64,000 bases of DNA from a virus (taxonomy: Duplodnaviria; Caudoviricetes): IMG/VR virus record IMGVR_UViG_2671180292_000001, positions 32,001-96,000 of that record, one strand, 5' to 3'. Positions 4,078 to 64,000 of the stretch are shown here, piece by piece. The translations under genes and the position numbers were made by a program. Under the pieces are notes generated by a model. It had not been told where the DNA came from, made no database searches, and worked only from the letters and a program-made list of their open reading frames with translations. Numbering within the stretch: position 1 is the first letter of the stretch; each line of letters opens with the position of its first letter.

Positions 4078-4491
4078 TCAGGGTGCGATCAGGATGTGGG
4101 GGACGCTGGCGCCGACGTCCATCCGGTACGTCCCACTGGCCACCACCACCCCGTCGACCATGACCCAACCGTCTGCCGTGGCGTCCACCGAACACGGGGA
4201 GAGCACGGGAAGCTTGCCGAGCTTCTGGGCCTGGCGCTCGAGCGCGGCGAGGTACTCCGGATGCTCCAGCATCCGGATGTCCCCGACCCGGACACCTGCT
4301 TGGTCCTCGAGGTTGATGTAGATCGGTGCGTCGTGCCGCTGGCACTGCAGCACGTGCTGGGGTGAGAAGGTGGCGGTCACCCACTTGCCGCAGTGTCGCC
4401 GGATGATCCACGTGCACTGGGGCGCGTGGGCGTATGTGATCGCATCTGTGTGGCCGCCGTCTAAGCAGGCGACCCGTCCGGCCTTAATCAT
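4078..4491 (-). CDS. Hypothetical protein (MIKAGRVAC...)
   Basis: AGAGGA RBS; GC3-biased ORF. Confidence 0.6.
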   Translation of the reverse strand: MIKAGRVACLDGGHTDAITYAHAPQCTWIIRRHCGKWVTATFSPQHVLQCQRHDAPIYINLEDQAGVRVGDIRMLEHPEYLAALERQAQKLGKLPVLSPCSVDATADGWVMVDGVVVASGTYRMDVGASVPHILIAP

Positions 4492-23114: not shown

Positions 23115-23245
23115 CCGCCACGCAGGGCAGCGTGCCGAGAGCACAAACGGCCTCATTCCTCTGTCCACCAGGGTCTTTCGCAGGGTGCCCCGGCCTTCAG
23201 GCCGGGGGTGAATGCGACCCCTGCGGAGCAGGGCAAGGAAAGCCG

Positions 23246-23398
23246 TTACGCCTCTTGGGCGGAACGGCGTTCAGCCTCTTCGACGGCACGCCGCACTACG
23301 GCGATCAACCAGGAGTTCAGGGAGCGGTCGTCGGCGGCGGCAGCGGCCTTGGCGCGCTCGTGCAGATCGTCGGGCAGTCTCAGGTTCACATGCTTCAT
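23246..23398 (-). CDS. Arc/CopG-like ribbon-helix-helix protein (50 aa; not in ORF track)
   Basis: MKHVNLRLPDDLHERAKAAAAADDRSLNSWLIAVVRRAV; divergent from tnpB, 28 bp apart. Confidence 0.75.
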   Translation of the reverse strand: MKHVNLRLPDDLHERAKAAAAADDRSLNSWLIAVVRRAVEEAERRSAQEA

Positions 23399-23426
23399 GG
23401 GATCATTGTGATGCTAAGATGGTCCC

Positions 23427-24617
23427 ATGTCGAGGTTTCGGATGTACCCCACGCCGCAGCAGGAGCAGCAGATGCTTCTGCACTGCGCGCACGCCCGGTA
23501 CGTGTGGAACCTCGCTGTCGAACAGCAGTCGTTTTGGCGTCCGGGCCGCAGGTCCGCGCCAGGGTTCGCCGAGCAGTGCCGCCAGCTCACCGAGGCCCGC
23601 GCCGTGTTCGACTGGCTGCGCGCCGGGTCGGTGAACATCCAGCAGCAGGCGCTCAGGGACTTCGCCCAGGCGATGGCGAACTACTTCGCCGGGACGCACA
23701 GGCGGCCGACCTGGCGCAAGGCGGGACGGCATGAGGGATTCCGTGTCGTCGGCAAGGATTACCGCGTACGCAAGGTATCCCGGAAGGTCGGCGAGGTCTG
23801 GGTGCCCAAAGCGGGATGGGTGCGGTTCCGCCTGTCACGCCCGCTTCCACCGGAAGCGAAGTCGTACCGGATCACCCGGGACCGTGCGGGCCGTTGGCAC
23901 GTGGCGTTCGCCGTCGCGCCACACCCGATCCCCGCGCCGGGCACGGGCGAGATAGTCGGGGTGGACCGGGGTGTCGCCGTGTCGGTGGCGCTGTCCACCG
24001 GGGAACTGCTGACCGCGCCAGGCCTGCGCGAGACGGAGAAAGCACGGCTGCGCCGGTTGCAGCGGAAACTCGCCCGAGCTAAGCGAGGATCTAACCGGCG
24101 GGCGCGGGTCAAGCTGGCCATCGCCCGGCTGAGGGCCCGTGAGAGCGATCGGCGCAAGGACTGGGTGGAGAAGACCTCCACCGACCTCGCGCGCCGGTTC
24201 GACATGATCGTCGTCGAGGACCTGAAGATCTCCAACATGATCCGCTCGGCGAAAGGCACCCTCGACGCGCCGGGCCGTAACGTCCGGCAGAAGTCTGGGC
24301 TCAACCGGAGCATCCTCGCCGCCGGGTGGGGACAGCTCGTAACCCGCCTGGAGCACAAGGCTCCGGGAAGGGTCGTGAAGGTCAATCCCGCGTACACGAG
24401 CCAGCGTTGCTCGGCGTGCGGGATCGTGGACCGGGAAGCGCGCGAGAGCCAAGCACGTTACCGGTGCCGGTCCTGCGGATACGCCGCCAACGCTGATGTG
24501 AACGCGGCCAGGAACATCAGGGATACCGCCGCAGGGCATGCGGTGGCTGCGCGGGAAGGGCTTCGGGTTGCCGGGCCGATGCACCGCGAACCTCAGCCCG
24601 TCCTCCTCTCTGTGTAG
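23427..24617 (+). CDS. tnpB: RNA-guided endonuclease TnpB
   Basis: GVDRG, VEDL, TSQRCSACG..CRSCG, NADVNAARNI; RuvC D-E-D intact. Confidence 0.95.
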   Translation: MSRFRMYPTPQQEQQMLLHCAHARYVWNLAVEQQSFWRPGRRSAPGFAEQCRQLTEARAVFDWLRAGSVNIQQQALRDFAQAMANYFAGTHRRPTWRKAGRHEGFRVVGKDYRVRKVSRKVGEVWVPKAGWVRFRLSRPLPPEAKSYRITRDRAGRWHVAFAVAPHPIPAPGTGEIVGVDRGVAVSVALSTGELLTAPGLRETEKARLRRLQRKLARAKRGSNRRARVKLAIARLRARESDRRKDWVEKTSTDLARRFDMIVVEDLKISNMIRSAKGTLDAPGRNVRQKSGLNRSILAAGWGQLVTRLEHKAPGRVVKVNPAYTSQRCSACGIVDREARESQARYRCRSCGYAANADVNAARNIRDTAAGHAVAAREGLRVAGPMHREPQPVLLSV

Positions 24618-24782
24618 AGCGACGGGTTGGAATCCCCCGCCTTCAGGCGGGGGAGGATGTCAAGTCAGTATCACTGTGCCATCGCCGCTGGCAGGTTCGG
24701 CGAGTGTGATGTCACCGCTGCGGATCTCGTCCGGATCGCCGTCCTCGTTGCAGCTGCCGCTAGCGGCGGCGTGGCAAGCGAT

Positions 24783-52650: not shown

Positions 52651-52962
52651 TCAGCCGGGAACGTCCGGTAGGCAGAACTGCGACGGGCGCCCAGGCTGGC
52701 AGTCGCAGACACCGGGGTTCTCCGCATGCCAGCGTTCCCACGCGGCACGGCCTGGGCGCCAGTGGCGGCGTACGGCCTCGGCGAGTGGGAGCGGTTCGGG
52801 TGGGTTGGCGAGGAACGCGGTGAGGGTGCGTTCGCGTTCGCGTGTCCACTCCTCCTCGGTGTACGGGGGCAGGCCGGCGCGGGCGGCCCGCTTGGTCGCG
52901 TAGACGCTGTCGATGCCGCCGCCCTGGTGGAACTCGCCACTCTGGGTCACCCAGACGTACAT
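52651..52962 (-). CDS. Hypothetical protein
   Basis: GGAGG RBS; YVWVT...IDSVYATK. Confidence 0.6.
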   Translation of the reverse strand: MYVWVTQSGEFHQGGGIDSVYATKRAARAGLPPYTEEEWTRERERTLTAFLANPPEPLPLAEAVRRHWRPGRAAWERWHAENPGVCDCQPGRPSQFCLPDVPG

Positions 52963-52992
52963 GGTGTTTCCTCCCTGATCGACGGTGCGGTC

Positions 52993-53670
52993 TTAGTCGA
53001 GGTCGGCTACGAGGACGGTCGCGTTGTCCGCGTGCCGGGTCGCGTGCCCGATCGCGGCGGTGGTCAAGGCACGGGCGGCGGTACGCGGGGAGCCCGTCAG
53101 GTAGGAGGCGAGGTCGCAGCCGTCGTCCTCGAGCGGCTCGTACGCGCCGTCGGACGCGAGCAGCAAACGGCCATGCTGGGCGGTGCTCCGGGCGCCGATG
53201 GCGGGGGCGTCCCTGGAGTCGCCCAGGTAGGAGGTGACGTGGTTACGGGCGTACTGGTCGGGCTCCTGACCGAGGTCTAGCAGCGTCTGGCGCATGTTGT
53301 GGTCCTTCGTCAGCCGCTCCAGCGTGCCGTCGGCCGTGAGGAGGTAGGCGCGGGCGTCGCCACACCACGCGACCTCCAACGGCTTGCCCGGGGCGGCGAC
53401 GGCGACGACTGCGACAGCGGCTGGCGCGCCGTAGTAGTCGCACTCGGCGGCGGCGACCGCGTGGATCGTGCGCAGGCCGCCCTCGGCGCTGGCTTGGAGG
53501 GCCGCGGCGCGGGCCAGGCGTCGGGCTGCGGTACGGGTCCACTCCCGCACGGTGTCGGAGGAGCCGATGCCGTCGAGCAACACGTACGCGCGGGTGCCGG
53601 CGTGGGTGTGGGTGGCGGTGGCGTCGCACTGGTGCGAGCGGCTGCCGATGAGCTGGGCTGTGGCGTGCAT
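52993..53670 (-). CDS. PP2C/SpoIIE-like Ser/Thr phosphatase
   Basis: QCDA, LLDGIG, WCGDARAY, LTKDH, LASDG, DNAT motifs. Confidence 0.85.
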   Translation of the reverse strand: MHATAQLIGSRSHQCDATATHTHAGTRAYVLLDGIGSSDTVREWTRTAARRLARAAALQASAEGGLRTIHAVAAAECDYYGAPAAVAVVAVAAPGKPLEVAWCGDARAYLLTADGTLERLTKDHNMRQTLLDLGQEPDQYARNHVTSYLGDSRDAPAIGARSTAQHGRLLLASDGAYEPLEDDGCDLASYLTGSPRTAARALTTAAIGHATRHADNATVLVADLD

Positions 53671-53719
53671 CGCGTTTCCTCGTTCTCTCAGCGGGGGTGC
53701 AGGGGGACGGGGCAGGGGG

Positions 53720-53869
53720 TTAGTTCTGCTGGTCGCGCAGGGCCGCGCGACGGGCAGCTGCGCGGGTGCGGGCGCGGCGGGGCCGGGGGTCGTGGCGGCC
53801 TGAGGCGTTGGAGCGGCGCAGCTCGACCAGGCGGGCGCCCGTGCGAGGGGCGGGGGTGTTCTTCGGCAT
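53720..53869 (-). CDS. Small Arg-rich protein (MPKNTPAPRTG...)
   Basis: AAGGA RBS; LRRSNASGRH..RARTRAAARR. Confidence 0.55.
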   Translation of the reverse strand: MPKNTPAPRTGARLVELRRSNASGRHDPRPRRARTRAAARRAALRDQQN

Positions 53870-53940
53870 CGCGGGGTTCCTTCCGAAGGGGGTGGGCCCC
53901 GGAGGGGGTCGGGCCCTGGGGGGGGCTATTGGCCGTAGTA

Positions 53941-55310
53941 GTGAAGGCTCCCCCAACTGAAGGCGGGGGCTTCCAGCGAATGCCCGTTCATGAGACGGGT
54001 TCCCTTCGCTTCGGTTGACGCTTCGTCGCCCCGCCCAACGGCTGGAGGGCTCCGCGTCCTGCCACGCCGCTTCCCGGCGCGGTTGCCGCCCTTACGGCGG
54101 CGTGATGGATGTTGCGGGCGGCGTTGAGGTCAGCGTTCCCGGCCCAACCGCACTGGGGGTTCTTACACACGAACCGCGCTTGGCTCTCACGCGATCCGGG
54201 TGTGATGAACCCGCAGACGTGGCACCGCAGGGAGGTGCCGGGAGCGGGAACGCGGACGATCGTGCCGCCACGTTCGGCGGTCTTGTAGGTGAGCTGCTCG
54301 GCGAGCTGGCCCCATGCCTCGCTTTGAATGGCTCGATTGAGCCCGGCCTTGGCGCGGACGTTGCGGCCCGGGTGGGCGACCGTGCCGCGCGCCGAGCGGG
54401 TCATGCCAGCGATGTTGAGGTCTTCAACGCCGATGAGGCTGTAGGTGTCAGCCAAACGGCGGGTGGTCTGGTGCTGCCAGTCGGCACGGCGACGCGCGGC
54501 ACGCCCCCGAAGATCAGCGATCTGGTCGTAGGTACGGGTCAGCCGCTTGGAGTCGGCCTCGCCTCGCACGCGGGTGCGCCTCCGGCGGGCGGACTGGCGC
54601 TCCAGCCGCAGCAGCCGTTCAGCTTCCTTCGGGCGAAGCCACGGCCCGTGATGCTGGTGGTTGCCGTCCGACAACGCGAGTGGGACGGCGATACCCCGGT
54701 CGATGCCAACCGATGGGCCAGCGTGCGGGGCGGGGTCGGGCTGCTCCCAGGTGGTACGGAAGACGATGTGCCAGCCGTTCGCCTCGTTCACCAGCCGCGC
54801 CCCGGTGACCCTGCCGGGGATAGCCCGGTGGGCGCGGAAGCGAACCACGCCAACCTTGGGGATCTTCACGGTGGCCCAGCGGCGTGACAGCTTCGTCACG
54901 TCCAGGTCGCGCCCCTGGGGAACGTCGATGACCATGCGGGACCGGATACGGGACTTGAAGCGCGGCGGCTTGGCGCGGCCATCCCAGAAGTTCGCCCACG
55001 CCCGCGTGTAGTGCTTGAGCACCTGCTGTGCCGCTTGGGCGGGAAGTACGGTCAGCCAGTCGATTTCCTTACGTGCCTGGCGGATCGCCTCGTCAGCCTG
55101 CTTCAGGCTCGGGCGACGGTGACGCCCACCCCACGTCCACCACTCGTGCAGAAGGTTCCACAACCCACGGGCTGCGTGGCCTTGCTCCTCCAAGATGGAG
55201 GCCTGCTCAGGGGTCGGGTAGAGCCGAAACTTGGTGCCGCGCTGGATCTCCACATCAACCTCCTCCCGTACGTATGGCACTCTCACAAAGCAAGATCATT
55301 CGCCGTAGTA
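53941..55310 (-). mobile_element. tnpB-only cassette with right end but no recognisable left-end hairpin or tnpA
   Basis: Right hairpin CCCCCGCC-TTCA-GTTGGGGG then TCAC at 53944-53941; flanked by imperfect 15-bp repeats of the host gene end. Confidence 0.7.
53988..55253 (-). CDS. tnpB: RNA-guided endonuclease TnpB
   Basis: KFRLYPT, GIDRG, VEDL, TSLRCHVCG, NADLNAARNI; GGAGG RBS + GTG 55253. Confidence 0.95.
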   Translation of the reverse strand: MEIQRGTKFRLYPTPEQASILEEQGHAARGLWNLLHEWWTWGGRHRRPSLKQADEAIRQARKEIDWLTVLPAQAAQQVLKHYTRAWANFWDGRAKPPRFKSRIRSRMVIDVPQGRDLDVTKLSRRWATVKIPKVGVVRFRAHRAIPGRVTGARLVNEANGWHIVFRTTWEQPDPAPHAGPSVGIDRGIAVPLALSDGNHQHHGPWLRPKEAERLLRLERQSARRRRTRVRGEADSKRLTRTYDQIADLRGRAARRRADWQHQTTRRLADTYSLIGVEDLNIAGMTRSARGTVAHPGRNVRAKAGLNRAIQSEAWGQLAEQLTYKTAERGGTIVRVPAPGTSLRCHVCGFITPGSRESQARFVCKNPQCGWAGNADLNAARNIHHAAVRAATAPGSGVAGRGALQPLGGATKRQPKRREPVS

Positions 55311-55412
55311 GTAGTCCGGGTCTTCGTCGTAGTCCTCGTCGTCGTAGGGGCCGTCGTAGTCGGCCTTCTCCAGCGCGTACTCCCACTCGGCGTAGGTGGT
55401 GAGGTCAGTCAT
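55296..55412 (-). CDS. 38-aa acidic Tyr-rich peptide
   Basis: MTDLTTYAEWEYALEKADYDGPYDDEDYDEDPDYYYGE; AAAGGGA RBS; GC3 codons. Confidence 0.65.
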   Translation of the reverse strand: MTDLTTYAEWEYALEKADYDGPYDDEDYDEDPDYYYGE

Positions 55413-55444
55413 GGAACGTTCCCTTTCTGCTCGTTTTCTGCTCG

Positions 55445-55816
55445 TTAGGCGGCGCGGCGGGCCGGGGCGGCGGCGGTCAGGATGCGGGCTGCTGCCGTGT
55501 GGTAGCAGCGGCGCTGGTGGCGGCCTGCCTTGCAGGTGCACTGTGCGGAGTGGGTGAGGTAGGTGGTGGTGCCGTCGGAGGCGACGGTGAGGTAGATGCC
55601 GGGGCGGCGGGTGGGGAGGATCGCGCCCTGCTCGATCAACTCGCGGGCCTTGTCGGCCTGGGCAGGCTTGTAGTCGGTGAGGTCGACCACGTTGGCGGCG
55701 GCGGCGACCTTGGCCTGGCAGCGGGGGCCGCGGCCGTTGGCGATGGAGCGGGCGGAGCGGAGAGGGCGGTGGCAGCTGAGGCACCGGGCGGTGGTGGTGT
55801 TCTGCGTGGTGGTCAT
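55445..55816 (-). CDS. DUF6011-like + SWIM-like zinc finger protein
   Basis: CLSCHRPL...SIANGRGPRC and CTC...CYH. Confidence 0.75.
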   Translation of the reverse strand: MTTTQNTTTARCLSCHRPLRSARSIANGRGPRCQAKVAAAANVVDLTDYKPAQADKARELIEQGAILPTRRPGIYLTVASDGTTTYLTHSAQCTCKAGRHQRRCYHTAAARILTAAAPARRAA

Positions 55817-55843
55817 GGCCCTTCTCCAATCACTTGCTGTCCC

Positions 55844-55907
55844 GTTCAACAGGACTAAGTTTTCCAGAGAGGGAAGACAGTATCAAGCCGAACACGACAA
55901 AGTTTTA
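55844..55907 (-). promoter_or_regulatory. Early promoter/operator cassette 1
   Basis: TTGATA-17-AAAACT with two AAACTWWGTCNYGTT boxes. Confidence 0.75.
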
Positions 55908-55989
55908 GGCTGTGACCCCAACAACATCAGCGCAAACAAAAGAGCCGCCCGCGACCACCACGCGAACGGCTCCACAAACCCCGGTCCGG

Positions 55990-56271
55990 CTACCCCTCGG
56001 CAGGCTTCTTCCGAGGACGCCCACCACCAACACCCCGCCCCCGCCGGCGCTTCTTCCACTCCACGATCGTCTCCGGACGCCACACCGGGGTACGTCCCAT
56101 CATCTGATCCTCCATCGGGAGAGCACCAGCAAGCTGCGTCGGCGTCACCTCCTCACCAGCGGCCTGCCGCTTCCGGAGGTCATCGCTACGGACCCGATAC
56201 CTGTGCACGGTCTGCGGCTTCACGCCCAGATACTCCGCGACTTCCTTCGGGCTCCAAAAATCTGCGTCCAT
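55990..56271 (-). CDS. HTH DNA-binding protein (excisionase/AlpA-like), candidate repressor
   Basis: WSPKEVAEYLGVKPQTVHRY...GRTPVW....IVEW..RR.GRG. Confidence 0.8.
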   Translation of the reverse strand: MDADFWSPKEVAEYLGVKPQTVHRYRVRSDDLRKRQAAGEEVTPTQLAGALPMEDQMMGRTPVWRPETIVEWKKRRRGRGVGGGRPRKKPAEG

Positions 56272-56287
56272 GTCAACCACACAAGGA

Positions 56288-56614
56288 TTATGGCGTCCCA
56301 TCGCCCGGCCCCGCTGTGCACCCTGGCACATTGAGGTCTACCCGGCGAGGACACAGACGCCGCCACTGCTCCCGTGAAACACACGAGACGCGATCCCCCG
56401 CGGGGACGTGCAAGACGCCGGTGGACGGCTCACGCGGGCCGACGGGCACGGCGATGTCCCAGCGGATCCGCCACCCGGCGGGGTACCGCTTGATGGCGCG
56501 GACGATGCCGTACAGGTCGCTCGCGGCCAGCGGCCCGTCAGTGACGCGGATGATATGCCCCGGCTTGAGCGCGGACGGGTCGACGTGGTGAAGGTCAGGC
56601 AGAACGATCATCAT
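56288..56614 (-). CDS. Hypothetical protein
   Basis: ATGA coupling; GGAGGGAG RBS. Confidence 0.55.
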   Translation of the reverse strand: MMIVLPDLHHVDPSALKPGHIIRVTDGPLAASDLYGIVRAIKRYPAGWRIRWDIAVPVGPREPSTGVLHVPAGDRVSCVSREQWRRLCPRRVDLNVPGCTAGPGDGTP

Positions 56615-57051
56615 GTCTCTCCCTCCAACGCAGAGTGGATCGCCGCGACAGGAACCGAGGGAATTGCGTTAGGTCCGCACATCACCGGATGCGCGATAGC
56701 GGCCCGGACACGGGCGATAATGGCCTCAGCCTTGGACAGCGCGGCGTCTAGTTCCCACGCTGCCGCCTCCAGGTCCCCATGCCGGGGGCAGGACCGGTGA
56801 GCACGGGCCACGGGATTCCCGACGACACGGCTCAGGTCGTCGAGCACGTCCGAGGCGCGGAGACAGATGCCGTTGCACTGCGGCAGCGCGGCCTCGGCCT
56901 GCTCGGCGCGCTGTATAGCAGCGGTCAGCTCGTCGTCCCGTACGGCCAGCAGTGCGGATAGGACGCGGTCGCGGTCTTCTTGCCGTCTCGGATGCCATTG
57001 GGCGCCCAGGAGTGTGTCTTCGTACCGCTGGCGGAGGTCGTTGTCAGCCAC
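56611..57051 (-). CDS. Hypothetical protein
   Basis: GGAGG RBS; LLAVRDDEL, shared with 60663-61121. Confidence 0.65.
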   Translation of the reverse strand: MADNDLRQRYEDTLLGAQWHPRRQEDRDRVLSALLAVRDDELTAAIQRAEQAEAALPQCNGICLRASDVLDDLSRVVGNPVARAHRSCPRHGDLEAAAWELDAALSKAEAIIARVRAAIAHPVMCGPNAIPSVPVAAIHSALEGET

Positions 57052-62584: not shown

Positions 62585-63778
62585 TCACGCTGCCTCTACC
62601 TTGGGTGGTTGGCGCTTCACAGACCGCCCAACGGCGAGGTCTCCACGCCCTGTCACCGCCAGCCCGGCGGCGAGGATGTTCTTCGCGGCGTTCACGTCGG
62701 CGTTGGCCTGGTGGCCGCAGGCGCGGCACCGGAACACCGCTTGGCTCTCACGGTTGTCCGGCGCGCAGTGCCCGCAGGCATGGCAGGTCTGCGATGTGAA
62801 CGCAGGTGGCACCCGCAGAATACGGGAGCCGTTGTAACGAGCCTTGTGCTCTAAGGCGGTCAGCAGACCGCCCCATCCCTTGGCCAGGATCGCCCGGTTC
62901 AGCCCAGCCTTGGCGGCGACGTTCCTCCCCGGCTCGGCAAGCGTGCCTTTGGCAGAGGCGGTCATGTTCCGGATGTTGAGGTCCTCCACAACGACCAGTC
63001 CGTGGTCACGGGTGAGGCGGTTGGCGGTCCACGCCAGGAAGTCGGTACGCCGGGCGCGGATGCGGGCGTTCAGCTTGGTCAGCTTCGCCCGGGCGGCCGC
63101 GCGCCGGTTGGAGCCCTTCCGCTGCCGGGCGAGCTGCTGCTGAAGACGCTTGAGCCGTACCGCCTCCCCTGGGGTGACGACCTCGCGGTCACGCATCCAC
63201 CCGGACGAGGTAGCGACTGCGACAGTGACACCACGATCCACCCCCACCGGGGGTTTGCCATTCGGTGCGGACTCCATCAGCCCGTCTTCGACGCAGAAGG
63301 AGATGTACCAGCGCCCACCGTCCTTGAGCACGGTGGCATTGCGAAGTTGCCCGCCGAGCGGGCGTGTCCACCGGAAGCGGGTCCAGCCCAGCTTGGGCAG
63401 CTTGACCCGGCCCCAGCGACGGGAGATTCGCTCCACGGTGATCTGCTTGGGATCGGGGAAGCGGAACGTCGGCGCGTTTTTCCGCTTGGAGCGCCAGCGG
63501 ACCTTGAACGTGCCGTGCGTCTTACATGCCCGCTCAAGGTCGCGCAGCGTTTGCTGAAGCGTGTGCGACGGGGCCTCGGCCAGCCACGGGAACTCGCGCT
63601 TGGCTTCGGCCATTTGCCGCGCCTGCTCTACGTAACCGATGAACGCGCCGCGCCGCCGGTACTGTCGGCGCTGCTCCAGCGCGGTGTTCCACACAACCCG
63701 GCAGGCGTCACCGATCTTCTCGGCGAACTCCTCCTGCTCGGGGGTGAAGGCCAGCAGGTAGCGGCGGCCGGTCAGCAT
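62585..63778 (-). CDS. tnpB: RNA-guided endonuclease TnpB
   Basis: GVDRG, VEDL, TSQTCHACG, NADVNAAKNI. Confidence 0.95.
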   Translation of the reverse strand: MLTGRRYLLAFTPEQEEFAEKIGDACRVVWNTALEQRRQYRRRGAFIGYVEQARQMAEAKREFPWLAEAPSHTLQQTLRDLERACKTHGTFKVRWRSKRKNAPTFRFPDPKQITVERISRRWGRVKLPKLGWTRFRWTRPLGGQLRNATVLKDGGRWYISFCVEDGLMESAPNGKPPVGVDRGVTVAVATSSGWMRDREVVTPGEAVRLKRLQQQLARQRKGSNRRAAARAKLTKLNARIRARRTDFLAWTANRLTRDHGLVVVEDLNIRNMTASAKGTLAEPGRNVAAKAGLNRAILAKGWGGLLTALEHKARYNGSRILRVPPAFTSQTCHACGHCAPDNRESQAVFRCRACGHQANADVNAAKNILAAGLAVTGRGDLAVGRSVKRQPPKVEAA

Positions 63779-64000
63779 TCAACGGCCCTTCTGCTGCTCG
63801 ACGTACCGCTTCACCACATCCAGTGGCGCGCCGCCGACCGTGGCTACGAAGTAGGAGTTCGTCCACAACGTCGGCAGCCGGGACTTCAGGTGCGGGAACT
63901 CCTCCCGCAGCACGCGGGACGAGCGGCCCTTGATGGCCTTCACCAGACGGTGGATGCCGTACTGCGGATCGACTTCAACCAGGAGGTGGACGTGGTCGGG
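63779..64000 (-). CDS. tnpA: Y1 HUH transposase TnpA (partial)
   Basis: PDHVHLL..KGRSSR.LR.EF..LWTNSYF..VKRYVEQQ; stop abuts tnpB ATG. Confidence 0.93.
   Translation of the reverse strand, partial: PDHVHLLVEVDPQYGIHRLVKAIKGRSSRVLREEFPHLKSRLPTLWTNSYFVATVGGAPLDVVKRYVEQQKGR

What the first reader, a model, noticed from the sequence alone, without database searches (positions are those of the whole stretch)
53926..55316. tnpA-less TnpB cassette flanked by a recoded copy of its own predicted target
Seen (minus strand): the upstream gene ends GACTAC-TACTACGGCGAATGA (YYGE*, 55310-55296), and directly after the right-end TCAC comes TACTACGGCCAATAG (YYGQ*, 53940-53926): 12/15 identical, both ending in a stop. 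Only 42 bp separate the gene from tnpB, with no left-end hairpin. Known: the TnpB guide is the sequence just 3' of the right end, and IS200/IS605 insertion makes no target duplication. Inference: the cassette homes into the last codons of this gene and supplies a recoded 3' end that repairs the gene and escapes cleavage (mismatches at guide positions 10, 14, 15). The 9-nt seed match beside its own start could also give autorepression. It would act as an RNA-guided homing endonuclease against cassette-free sibling phages.
Basis: partly seen in the sequence, partly recalled or inferred. Interest (0 to 1): 0.78.

Follow-up and report, generated by a model that had tools for sequence, protein, structure and literature searches.

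The report
Truncated TnpB module in a prophage
A guide-RNA nuclease gene (TnpB) that has lost its transposon left end sits at the tail of a small phage gene with a 15-base copy of that tail on each side, and related phages without it exist, so it is a natural candidate, still untested, for RNA-guided "homing" between phages.

Summary
On the minus strand a 38-aa acidic gene ends TACTACGGCGAATGA (55310-55296). An intact tnpB follows 42 nt later (55253-53988). The omega-RNA/right end stops at TCAC (53941) and is followed by TACTACGGCCAATAG (53940-53926).

Four relatives (two at 94% and 80% protein identity, two at 73% nucleotide identity) fix the right end exactly. They also show what a complete element looks like: YYAC | left-end hairpin | small reverse repressor-like gene | tnpB | right end. 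The window copy lacks the hairpin and the reverse gene. Its inferred target does have the family's CTAC motif.

Metagenome contigs show the filled allele in two further studies. They also show a probable empty allele (gene end TACTACGGCGAATAA joined to the right flank), and a third allele that shares the gene end plus 14 downstream bases and then diverges, with no cassette sequence.

The "recoding" does not. All four protein variants end YYGE, the left copy differs from the empty allele by one base, and the guide-side copy is the one that drifted (positions 10 and 15).

Best reading: a canonical IS605-family insertion whose left part was later replaced by recombination with a sibling phage, which restored the gene. 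Homing is plausible but unshown.

The parts
55296..55412 (-). Small acidic gene (38 aa, ...DPDYYYGE*). Its last 15 nt (55310-55296, TACTACGGCGAATGA) are the left copy of the repeat. CTAC at 55314-55311 is the TAM-like motif.
   Evidence: Homologues P0001, P0002 and P0004 all end YYYGE and differ in the number of DEDYD-like repeats.
55282..55295 (-). 14 nt after the stop codon (TCTTGCTTTGTGAG). This is phage sequence, shared with a contig that then diverges and holds no cassette sequence.
   Evidence: X3 record 21 (711 nt) matches 55282-55787 and then runs on for 190 nt unlike the window.
55254..55281 (-). Left junction and ribosome-binding region. Homology to the L008 and L009 elements begins at about 55275 and 55268. 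GGGAGGAGG lies at 55267-55259.
   Evidence: BLAST limits; alignments: no family homology further upstream.
53988..55253 (-). tnpB, 421 aa, GTG start, intact.
   Evidence: Pfam OrfB_IS605, Cas12f1-like_TNB and HTH_OrfB_IS605. Alignment to solved TnpB structures keeps GIDRG, VEDLN and NADLNAARN. dN/dS about 0.2. The exact protein is in the public collection.
53941..54160 (-). omega-RNA scaffold / right end, overlapping the tnpB 3' end and finishing ...GGAAGCCCCCGCCTTCAGTTGGGGGAGCCTTCAC.
   Evidence: Conserved in 5 of 5 members; 53 predicted pairs, 3 with compensatory changes. The window's terminal hairpin has one broken pair and one wobble pair. No Rfam family matched.
53921..53940 (-). Predicted guide / target relic, TACTACGGCCAATAGCCCCC. 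The first 15 nt are the right copy of the repeat, a relic of the gene's original end including a stop codon.
   Evidence: These are the only two YYAC+TACTACGGCSAAT sites in the 118-kb record.
53720..53869 (-). Downstream 49-aa arginine-rich gene. It is the right homology arm for any recombination with cassette-free phages.
   Evidence: Variants P0005-P0008.

Best explanation
The locus is a 5'-truncated copy of an IS200/IS605-family, TnpB-only (IS1341-like) element.

Complete members of this sub-family read: YYAC motif | left-end hairpin | a small reverse-strand DNA-binding gene | tnpB | omega-RNA/right end ending TCAC.

Inferred history:
1. One such element inserted in the canonical way, 3' of CTAC, inside the last five codons of a small acidic phage gene. 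This left TACTACGGCGAATAA... as its right flank and hence as its guide.
2. Later, recombination with a sibling phage replaced the element's left end and repressor gene. That phage carried an intact gene end and a different downstream sequence. The event restored the gene and left the 15-nt relic behind the right end as a direct repeat.

What remains is an intact tnpB with a strong ribosome-binding site, transcribed with the phage genes, plus a conserved omega-RNA. TnpA cannot move it because it has no left end.

It could still spread, or exclude rivals, by cutting cassette-free phages at CTAC+target and being copied in by homologous recombination (non-restorative homing).

Shown: the anatomy, the boundaries, the motif, the filled and other alleles, and purifying selection on tnpB. 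Inferred: the order of events, nuclease activity, and any homing.
For: - Right end: it is exact in 5 of 5 members.
- Complete relatives: 4 of 4 share YYAC, 16 nt, the hairpin GGCCCCGGCC-TTCA-GGCCGGGGG-TGAATCG and a reverse gene (PhdYeFM in L008, HTH_17 in L052), all within about 1.56-1.58 kb.
- Window homology: the window copy is homologous to them only from about 55275 to 53941. It has no hairpin.
- Motif: CTAC precedes the left copy.
- Right flank as relic: it is a near-copy of the gene's end, with an in-frame stop, followed by the intergenic run that leads to the next gene. This is what a canonical insertion into an empty allele leaves.
- Empty allele, run X1: two contigs run from the right flank into ...CCCTGGGGG-TTATTCGCCGTAGTAGT, which on the minus strand is ACTACTACGGCGAATAA-CCCCCAGGG.
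- Empty allele, contig lengths: a 1790-nt Logan contig length is shared by an acidic-gene variant (P0001) and a variant of the downstream gene (P0007). None of the 5 members of the 90%-identity TnpB cluster is on a contig of 1790, 3579 or 10062 nt.
- Third allele: X3 record 21 carries the gene end plus 14 nt and then 190 nt of unlike sequence, with no cassette sequence.
- Filled allele elsewhere: the X2 2449-nt contig spans 53433-55886 with 16 substitutions. X7 contigs cover both junctions without a difference. The X2 TnpB differs from the window's by 1 of 421 residues.
- Selection: dN/dS is 0.20-0.30 in all 10 pairs, and the RuvC motifs are kept.
Against: - The X1 loose ends stop at ...GTAGTAGT, one base short of the position that would separate 'empty' from 'filled with a less diverged right copy'. 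Linking P0001 and P0007 by equal contig length is an inference, so the empty allele is probable but not proven.
- The direction of descent between the window allele and the X3 allele is unknown. X3 could derive from the window type by loss of tnpB.
- The left junction would need an illegitimate or microhomology join (around GCCAT / CC(A/T)TACG), for which I have no independent evidence.
- Against present-day homing: the guide has two mismatches (positions 10 and 15 of 20) to the only empty-type sequence seen, and the terminal omega-RNA hairpin has lost one pair.
- No RNA data were obtained. No run on record as RNA held the stretch.
Confidence: 0.5

Rival explanations
1. The unit is an evolved homing cassette that includes the left 15-mer. 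It targets the last codons of the gene, brings a recoded gene end that repairs the gene and escapes its own guide, and spreads among sibling phages by an RNA-guided cut plus recombination. The 9-nt seed match next to its start may also repress it.
For: - The guide position, the CTAC motif and a probable single-copy empty site are all as predicted.
- The gene is intact only because of the left copy.
- The filled allele recurs in two other studies with nearly unchanged tnpB.
- The guide matches its own left copy at 13 of 20 positions and the empty-type site at 18 of 20 (and the X1 loose ends).
- The element has lost the repressor gene that its complete relatives carry, so another form of control would make sense.
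Against: - The left copy is the gene's ordinary end. 4 of 4 protein variants end YYYGE.
- It differs from the empty-type 15-mer only at position 14, far from the motif.
- The change at position 10 lies in the guide copy, so it separates the guide from empty sites as much as from its own left copy.
- The gene end plus 14 nt is followed in X3 by sequence that is not the cassette.
- 0 of 4 complete relatives show a duplication.
Confidence: 0.2
2. A decaying relic with no current activity. After the left end was lost, the module persists only because too little time has passed, and the guide and hairpin are drifting.
For: - The guide copy carries 2 changes relative to the empty-type sequence.
- The terminal hairpin has one broken and one wobble pair where L008 has perfect pairs.
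- There is no left end and no TnpA in the unit.
Against: - The tnpB frame is open over 421 codons with all catalytic motifs.
- dN/dS is about 0.2.
- The X2 copy differs by 1 residue on a contig with 16 substitutions in 2449 nt.
- L053 also has one broken pair in the same hairpin.
Confidence: 0.2
3. The 15-nt repeat is a scar of the founding event itself. TnpB cut a cassette-free phage 15-21 bp from the motif, and a tnpB-containing fragment copied from a filled genome was joined to the left break end by end joining. This duplicated the 15 nt between motif and cut and truncated the element's 5' part.
For: - The repeat length (15 nt) equals the distance from motif to the non-target-strand cut reported for ISDra2 TnpB (passages of PMC8612924).
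- The element is truncated on exactly that side.
Against: - The window shares at least 29 nt after the motif with the X3 allele. That is more than a break end cut at 15-21 nt could keep, unless X3 derives from the window type.
- This is a single case: 0 of 4 relatives show it.
Confidence: 0.08
4. Chance similarity between two short Tyr-codon-rich stretches.
For: In the loose repeat test another locus (L066) reaches 11 nt and two reach 10.
Against: - The match starts exactly at the right-end boundary and ends exactly at the gene's stop.
- 81 of 20,000 random 15-mers do as well.
- The right copy keeps an in-frame stop.
- An intermediate 15-mer (GAATAA) is found joined to the right flank.
Confidence: 0.02

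Closest known systems
ISDra2 / IS200-IS605-family TnpB with its omega (right-end) RNA
   Same: - Same protein family and domain set.
- The guide is taken from the DNA just 3' of the right end.
- A 4-5-nt motif lies 5' of the left end and marks the target.
- These points for ISDra2 come from passages of PMC8612924.
   Different: - No TnpA and no left-end hairpin in the unit, and a different motif (YYAC, against TTGAT in ISDra2).
- It sits in a phage genome, flanked by a 15-nt direct repeat. The family does not normally make such a repeat, according to a passage of the review PMC13565253.
IS1341-type TnpB-only elements with an Arc-like repressor gene
   Same: The complete relatives (L008, L009, L052, L053 and the element at window 23.16-24.66 kb) carry a small reverse-strand DNA-binding gene between the left end and tnpB. 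This parallels the Arc repressor described for IS605-family elements (abstract of 10.64898/2026.09.24.754181).
   Different: - The window copy has lost that gene and the promoter region.
- In the relatives the slot is filled by unrelated folds: PhdYeFM, HTH_17 and Arc.
TnpB 'gene drive' in plasmids / transposon non-restorative homing
   Same: Spread that needs TnpB but not TnpA, by cutting element-free copies of the same replicon. See the abstract of PMC11870625; the review PMC13565253 lists coinfected phages as possible targets.
   Different: There the element is a complete IS. Here it is an immobile fragment, and the replicon is a temperate phage. No experiment exists for this locus.
Free-standing homing endonuclease genes of T-even phages (Seg, Mob; intronless homing)
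   Same: A nuclease gene lies between conserved phage genes, with a present/absent polymorphism among relatives. Self and non-self are told apart by a few substitutions near the cut site (passage of PMC13565253).
   Different: Recognition here would be by a guide RNA that is a frozen copy of the target, not by protein. The self/non-self differences lie mostly beyond position 13 of the target.
TldR-type domesticated TnpB (RNA-guided repressors, some in prophages)
   Same: A prophage-borne TnpB relative with a fixed guide that has a partial match next to a gene (PMC10705468: search listing and start of abstract only).
   Different: The RuvC motifs are retained here. That TldRs lose them is recalled, not checked. 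No conserved promoter target was identified.

Membership tests
TnpB (IS200/IS605-family RNA-guided nuclease) | OrfB_IS605 RuvC core, zinc-ribbon (TNB) and N-terminal HTH domains | tested here: met
   PF01385 1.6e-13, PF07282 8.7e-18, PF12323 4.9e-08, all above the curated cut-offs; 20 solved TnpB/Cas12f-type chains matched, the best at 4.8e-31.
TnpB (IS200/IS605-family RNA-guided nuclease) | RuvC catalytic Asp-Glu-Asp retained | tested here: met
   GIDRG, VEDLN and NADLNAARN align with the same motifs of a solved transposase/TnpB chain and are invariant in the 5 cluster members. Which residues are catalytic is recalled; D191 of ISDra2 is named in PMC8612924.
TnpB (IS200/IS605-family RNA-guided nuclease) | Conserved structured RNA scaffold overlapping the gene's 3' end and stopping at a sharp right-end boundary, followed by a variable guide | tested here: met
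   5 of 5 members are alike up to CTTCAC and unrelated after it; 53 predicted pairs, 3 compensatory. No Rfam model matched.
TnpB (IS200/IS605-family RNA-guided nuclease) | RNA-guided, motif-dependent DNA cleavage | not testable with these tools
   Needs biochemistry or an interference assay.
Complete IS200/IS605-family transposable element | Subterminal hairpin at the left end | tested here: not met
   the family's left-end hairpin motif is found only at 23194-23213; no stable fold at the left junction.
Complete IS200/IS605-family transposable element | Target motif directly 5' of the left end | tested here: inconclusive
   CTAC lies 5' of the left 15-mer and matches the YYAC seen at 4 of 4 complete relatives. 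The original left end itself is gone.
Complete IS200/IS605-family transposable element | No target-site duplication | tested here: not met
   A 15-nt direct repeat (12 of 15) flanks the unit. I read it as secondary.
Complete IS200/IS605-family transposable element | Y1 transposase TnpA in the element or available in trans | tested here: inconclusive
   There is none in the unit. A 132-aa ORF adjoins another tnpB at record position 95779-96177 (window 63779 onward). I read it as TnpA from its position and sequence without a family search. It belongs to a different element.
Free-standing homing endonuclease cassette (intronless homing) | Presence/absence polymorphism between otherwise homologous phage genomes | tested here: met
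   Filled: the window, X2 and X7. Without cassette sequence at the junction: the X3 contig. Probable empty junction in X1.
Free-standing homing endonuclease cassette (intronless homing) | The nuclease cuts the cassette-free allele and spares its own genome; biased inheritance in mixed infection | not testable with these tools
   Sequence only: the guide matches the empty-type site at 18 of 20 positions and its own left copy at 13 of 20.
TldR-like nuclease-dead TnpB repressor | Loss of RuvC catalytic residues | tested here: not met
   The motifs are intact.

The most novel reading that the evidence does not exclude
A phage has turned a TnpB-omega-RNA pair into a free-standing RNA-guided homing endonuclease. 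Having lost the transposon left end and the repressor gene, the module spreads or excludes rivals by cutting cassette-free sibling phages at CTAC+TACTACGG.... The 15-nt repeat is the scar of the founding cut-and-repair event, its length being the distance from motif to cut. The seed-matched left copy 42 nt upstream of tnpB now serves as a binding site through which the complex limits its own expression, replacing the lost Arc-type repressor.
Probability: 0.15. Interest if true: 0.8.

Novelty: new variant of a known kind. Interest (0 to 1): 0.5.

Why it matters
TnpB is understood as a helper of TnpA-driven transposition. More recently it has been shown to act as a gene drive in plasmids. Spread into coinfecting phages has been named as a possibility in a review (passages of PMC13565253). 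My three literature searches found no worked natural example in a phage.

This locus offers one to test. It is an immobile tnpB/omega-RNA under purifying selection. The target site, the filled alleles and probable empty alleles co-occur in manure, compost and soil metagenomes. The locus also keeps the interrupted gene intact.

It also shows how a canonical IS605-type insertion can be reshaped by phage mosaic recombination into something that looks like a target-site duplication. That is a caution for annotating solo TnpB genes.

Tried and rejected
- Rfam scan of 53500-55600 at E up to 1: no match.
- Phage collection: no near match, and only 3 distant partial matches, to a phosphatase gene and to Thermobifida phage P1312 hypothetical-protein genes.
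- IMG/VR relatives of the neighbouring DUF6011 gene (3 loci, 65% or less) and of the PP2C gene (14 loci, 61% or less, one partial at 76%): none has the small acidic gene at this position. One distant look-alike lies elsewhere (L021).
- Exact-pattern scans for the right junction (viral and metagenome collections), for a back-translated piece of the acidic gene (metagenomes) and for the X3-type downstream 30-mer (window and viral contigs): zero matches.
- A degenerate pattern for the left or empty junction gave 4 unrelated chance hits.
- The genome search with the left flank (401 genomes, class level) and the right flank (401, family level): only about 70% matches (G332; G533, G742), with no acidic gene there. 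Nothing in this report rests on the four genomes flagged unpublished.
- A PP2C search to tie the 1790-nt contig to a full phosphatase gene: none of the 120 listed hits is on a 1790-nt contig, so that stricter proof of an empty allele failed.
- Depth in the Logan contigs. In X1 and X3 the flanks have much higher contig depth than the tnpB region, and X3 has no cover at 53916-54042.
- Shares of words in the 20 holding runs do not separate filled from empty: the filled X2 has 0.62.
- Homology of the 42-nt spacer to the relatives' tnpB-upstream regions: none beyond the ribosome-binding region.
Supplementary files were not asked for.
- No structure or complex prediction was run. None would bear on the question.
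Full report
**Setting**

The window is bases 32001-96000 of a 118,494-base IMG/VR record classed as a provirus. It is G+C-rich. Its nearest relatives are actinobacterial (Streptosporangium and Streptomyces hits; a Thermobifida phage hit).

The finding lies on the minus strand, upstream of the small and large terminase genes. The gene order is:
- DUF6011 gene, 55849-55445
- 38-aa acidic gene, 55412-55296
- tnpB, 55253-53988
- 49-aa arginine-rich gene, 53869-53720
- PP2C phosphatase gene, 53670-52993
- terminase genes

- The acidic gene ends GAC TAC TAC TAC GGC GAA TGA. Its last 15 nt (55310-55296) match TACTACGGCCAATAG (53940-53926) at 12 of 15 positions. That second 15-mer starts immediately after ...GCCTTCAC.
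- The spacer between the stop codon and the tnpB GTG is 42 nt. GGGAGGAGG lies 5 nt before the start.
- In a chance test, 81 of 20,000 random window 15-mers matched the 100 nt upstream of tnpB as well, and 13 had the first nine bases exact.
- A looser test is less striking. It takes the longest exact repeat between the 150 nt upstream and the 300 nt downstream of tnpB. Over the 32 TnpB loci that could be scored, the window reaches 11 nt, one other locus also 11, and two reach 10.
- The strength of the observation therefore lies in position: the match starts exactly at the right-end boundary and ends exactly at the stop codon.

**What the gene is**

- The 421-aa protein carries the three TnpB Pfam domains.
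- It aligns with solved TnpB and Cas12f structures and keeps the GIDRG, VEDLN and NADLNAARN motifs.
- Its exact sequence is on record in NCBI, UniRef and Logan.

**Relatives define the element**

- Close relatives are L008 (an IMG/VR phage contig, 94% protein identity), L009 (Streptosporangium violaceochromogenes, 80%), and L052 and L053 (two genomes of the same order, 73% at the DNA level).
- All five copies are alike up to ...GGGAG(C/A)CTTCAC and unrelated afterwards. The right end, and hence the guide, is fixed to the base.
- The last 220 nt are strongly conserved. They have 53 predicted pairs, 3 with compensatory changes. The window's terminal hairpin has one broken pair and one wobble pair.
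- To the left, the four relatives share an architecture that the window lacks:
  - a YYAC motif (GTCAC, TCTAC, ACCAC, TCTAC);
  - 16 nt, then the hairpin GGCCCCGGCC-TTCA-GGCCGGGGG-TGAATCG;
  - a small reverse-strand gene whose last codons (…DSPPA or …DSPAA) lie in the hairpin;
  - a 60-80-nt divergent intergenic region, then tnpB.
- The reverse gene is a PhdYeFM-type protein in L008 (L009's 55-aa protein is closely similar by eye; it was not scanned) and an HTH_17 protein in L052. L053's was not scanned.
- A more distant, complete element elsewhere in the window (about 23.16-24.66 kb) has an Arc-type gene in the same slot. This recalls the Arc repressor recently described for IS605-family elements (abstract of 10.64898/2026.09.24.754181).
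- The window copy is homologous to L008 and L009 only from about 55275/55268 to 53941. It has no left-end hairpin and no reverse gene. It is a 5'-truncated copy.

**The target**

- If a complete element once inserted canonically 3' of its motif, the left flank should end YYAC and the right flank should be the rest of the target.
- In the window, CTAC (55314-55311) precedes the left 15-mer. The right flank is a near-copy of the gene's last five codons plus a stop, followed by the C-run and the intergenic sequence that leads to the next gene.
- That is the signature of an insertion at GGACTAC|TACTACGGCGAAT(A/G)(A/G) in an allele where the gene end abutted that intergenic sequence.
- These are the only two sites of this kind in the 118-kb record.

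**Alleles in nature**

Twenty public runs from 11 studies hold parts of 52900-56700. I laid four of them on the window.

- Filled alleles:
  - X2 has a 2449-nt contig spanning 53433-55886, with 16 substitutions and 5 gaps.
  - X7 has short contigs identical to the window across both junctions.
- Probable empty allele:
  - X1 has two contigs that follow the right flank and then leave the window at 53899 and 53922.
  - On the plus strand they continue GGAGGGGGCGGGCCCTGGGGGTTATTCGCC and TTATTCGCCGTAGTAGT.
  - On the minus strand this reads ACTACTACGGCGAATAA directly joined to CCCCCAGGGCCCGCCCCCTCC.
  - I read this as the empty allele. However, both contigs stop one base before the position that would tell it from a filled allele with a less diverged right copy.
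- Independent support from the protein collection:
  - The acidic protein has three variants besides the window's own (40, 42 and 43 aa), all ending YYYGE.
  - The 40-aa variant lies on a 1790-nt Logan contig. A variant of the downstream 49-aa protein also lies on a 1790-nt contig.
  - The same logic identifies the X2 contig: a 49-aa variant and a TnpB both sit on a 2449-nt contig.
  - The 90%-identity TnpB cluster has five members, on contigs of 921,894, 26,555 (L008), 4553, 1616 and 2449 nt. None is on a contig of 1790, 3579 or 10,062 nt.
- Third allele:
  - X3 has a 711-nt contig that carries the 43-aa variant of the gene.
  - It matches the window down to 55282, which is the gene end plus TCTTGCTTTGTGAG.
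  - It then runs on for 190 nt unlike the window, so the gene end is followed there by sequence that is not the cassette.
- In X1 and X3 the tnpB-like contigs leave the window at 55267 into the L008-type upstream sequence. Complete elements therefore live in the same communities.

- The anatomy, the guide, the motif and the single-copy empty site are as predicted.
- The empty-type 15-mer is TACTACGGCGAATAA. The left copy differs from it at one position (14). The right copy differs at two (10 and 15).
- The conserved protein end is E, not Q.
- So the gene-side copy is not recoded. The guide-side copy is the one that drifted.
- The mismatch at position 10 separates the guide from empty sites as much as from its own left copy. 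Discrimination rests on positions 14 and 16-20. The guide matches the empty-type site at 18 of 20 and the left copy at 13 of 20.
- The 14 nt after the stop are phage DNA shared with the X3 allele.
- None of the four complete relatives has a flank duplication: the best match is 9-10 of 15 in about 580 nt.

**Most likely history and mechanism**

1. An L008-type element inserted canonically into the gene's last codons in an 'empty-type' phage.
2. Recombination with a sibling phage of the X3 type replaced the left end and the repressor gene. The join lies between 55282 and 55275. This restored the gene and left the 15-nt relic as a direct repeat.

What remains:
- It cannot be moved by TnpA.
- tnpB is open and keeps its catalytic motifs.
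- dN/dS is 0.20-0.30 in all ten pairwise comparisons.
- It differs by one residue from the X2 copy.
- One further cluster member (P0131) is a mosaic of the window type and the L008 type, which suggests gene conversion among copies.

Transcription would come from the phage operon; no promoter-like or terminator-like site was found in the spacer.

The module is flanked on both sides by homology to cassette-free phages. A cut at CTAC+target in such a phage could therefore copy it in. For ISDra2, guides are about 16 nt and the cuts fall 15-21 bp from the motif (PMC8612924). This would be the 'non-restorative homing' that a 2026 review lists as theoretically possible for coinfecting phages (PMC13565253), and that has been shown for plasmids (abstract of PMC11870625).

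I hold the history at about 0.5 and present-day homing at roughly 0.3.

**Rivals**

- An inert relic (0.2).
- A founding cut-and-join scar whose 15-nt length equals the motif-to-cut distance (0.08). The 29 nt shared with the X3 allele count against it.
- Chance (0.02).

**Novelty**

- TnpB genes in phages are known. The cyanophage A-1(L) preprint, read in passages, only speculates on a role.
- A search for TnpB together with 'actinobacteriophage' found no paper.
- Searches for TnpB with homing, phage, prophage or gene drive listed no worked phage example.
- This locus is a new variant of a known kind. It is of moderate interest as a ready natural test case, and as a warning that secondary recombination can mimic a target-site duplication at IS605-type insertions.

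Noticed in passing
window 23160-24660 (+): A second, complete TnpB-only element. It reads CCAC | left-end hairpin (23194-23213) | reverse-strand 49-aa Arc/HicB-like ribbon-helix-helix gene (23398-23252) | tnpB (23427-24617) | right end ...GGGGGAGGATGTCAA.
   Followed up: partly
window 62585-64000 and beyond (record C1 94585-96177), minus strand: A third element: a 132-aa ORF that I read as an IS200-type TnpA (from position and sequence, no family search), directly upstream of a 397-aa tnpB. This is a possible source of TnpA in trans, though for a different sub-family of ends.
   Followed up: no
L008 2751-2918, L009 2251-2418, L052 about 1267-1458, L053 about 1253-1450: In close relatives of one TnpB sub-family, the small reverse-strand gene between left end and tnpB is filled by unrelated DNA-binding folds (PhdYeFM in L008, with a closely similar unscanned protein in L009; HTH_17 in L052; L053 not scanned). 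All four end ...DSPPA or ...DSPAA, encoded inside the left-end hairpin.
   Followed up: partly
window 55296-55412 (-) and proteins P0001, P0002, P0004: The small acidic protein varies only in the number of DEDYD-like repeats (38, 40, 42 and 43 aa). It has no homologue outside these four variants in the 5.8-billion-protein collection.
   Followed up: partly
protein P0131 (Logan contig of 4553 nt): A TnpB that is window-type at both ends and L008-type in the middle. This suggests gene conversion between truncated and complete copies. Its genomic context could not be read.
   Followed up: no
L008 about 2980-2990 and about 4334-4343: The 10-mer CGTACGGGGA occurs both just upstream of tnpB and 21 nt beyond the right end, ahead of the terminase start codon. 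This may be chance; about one such case is expected among 32 loci.
   Followed up: no
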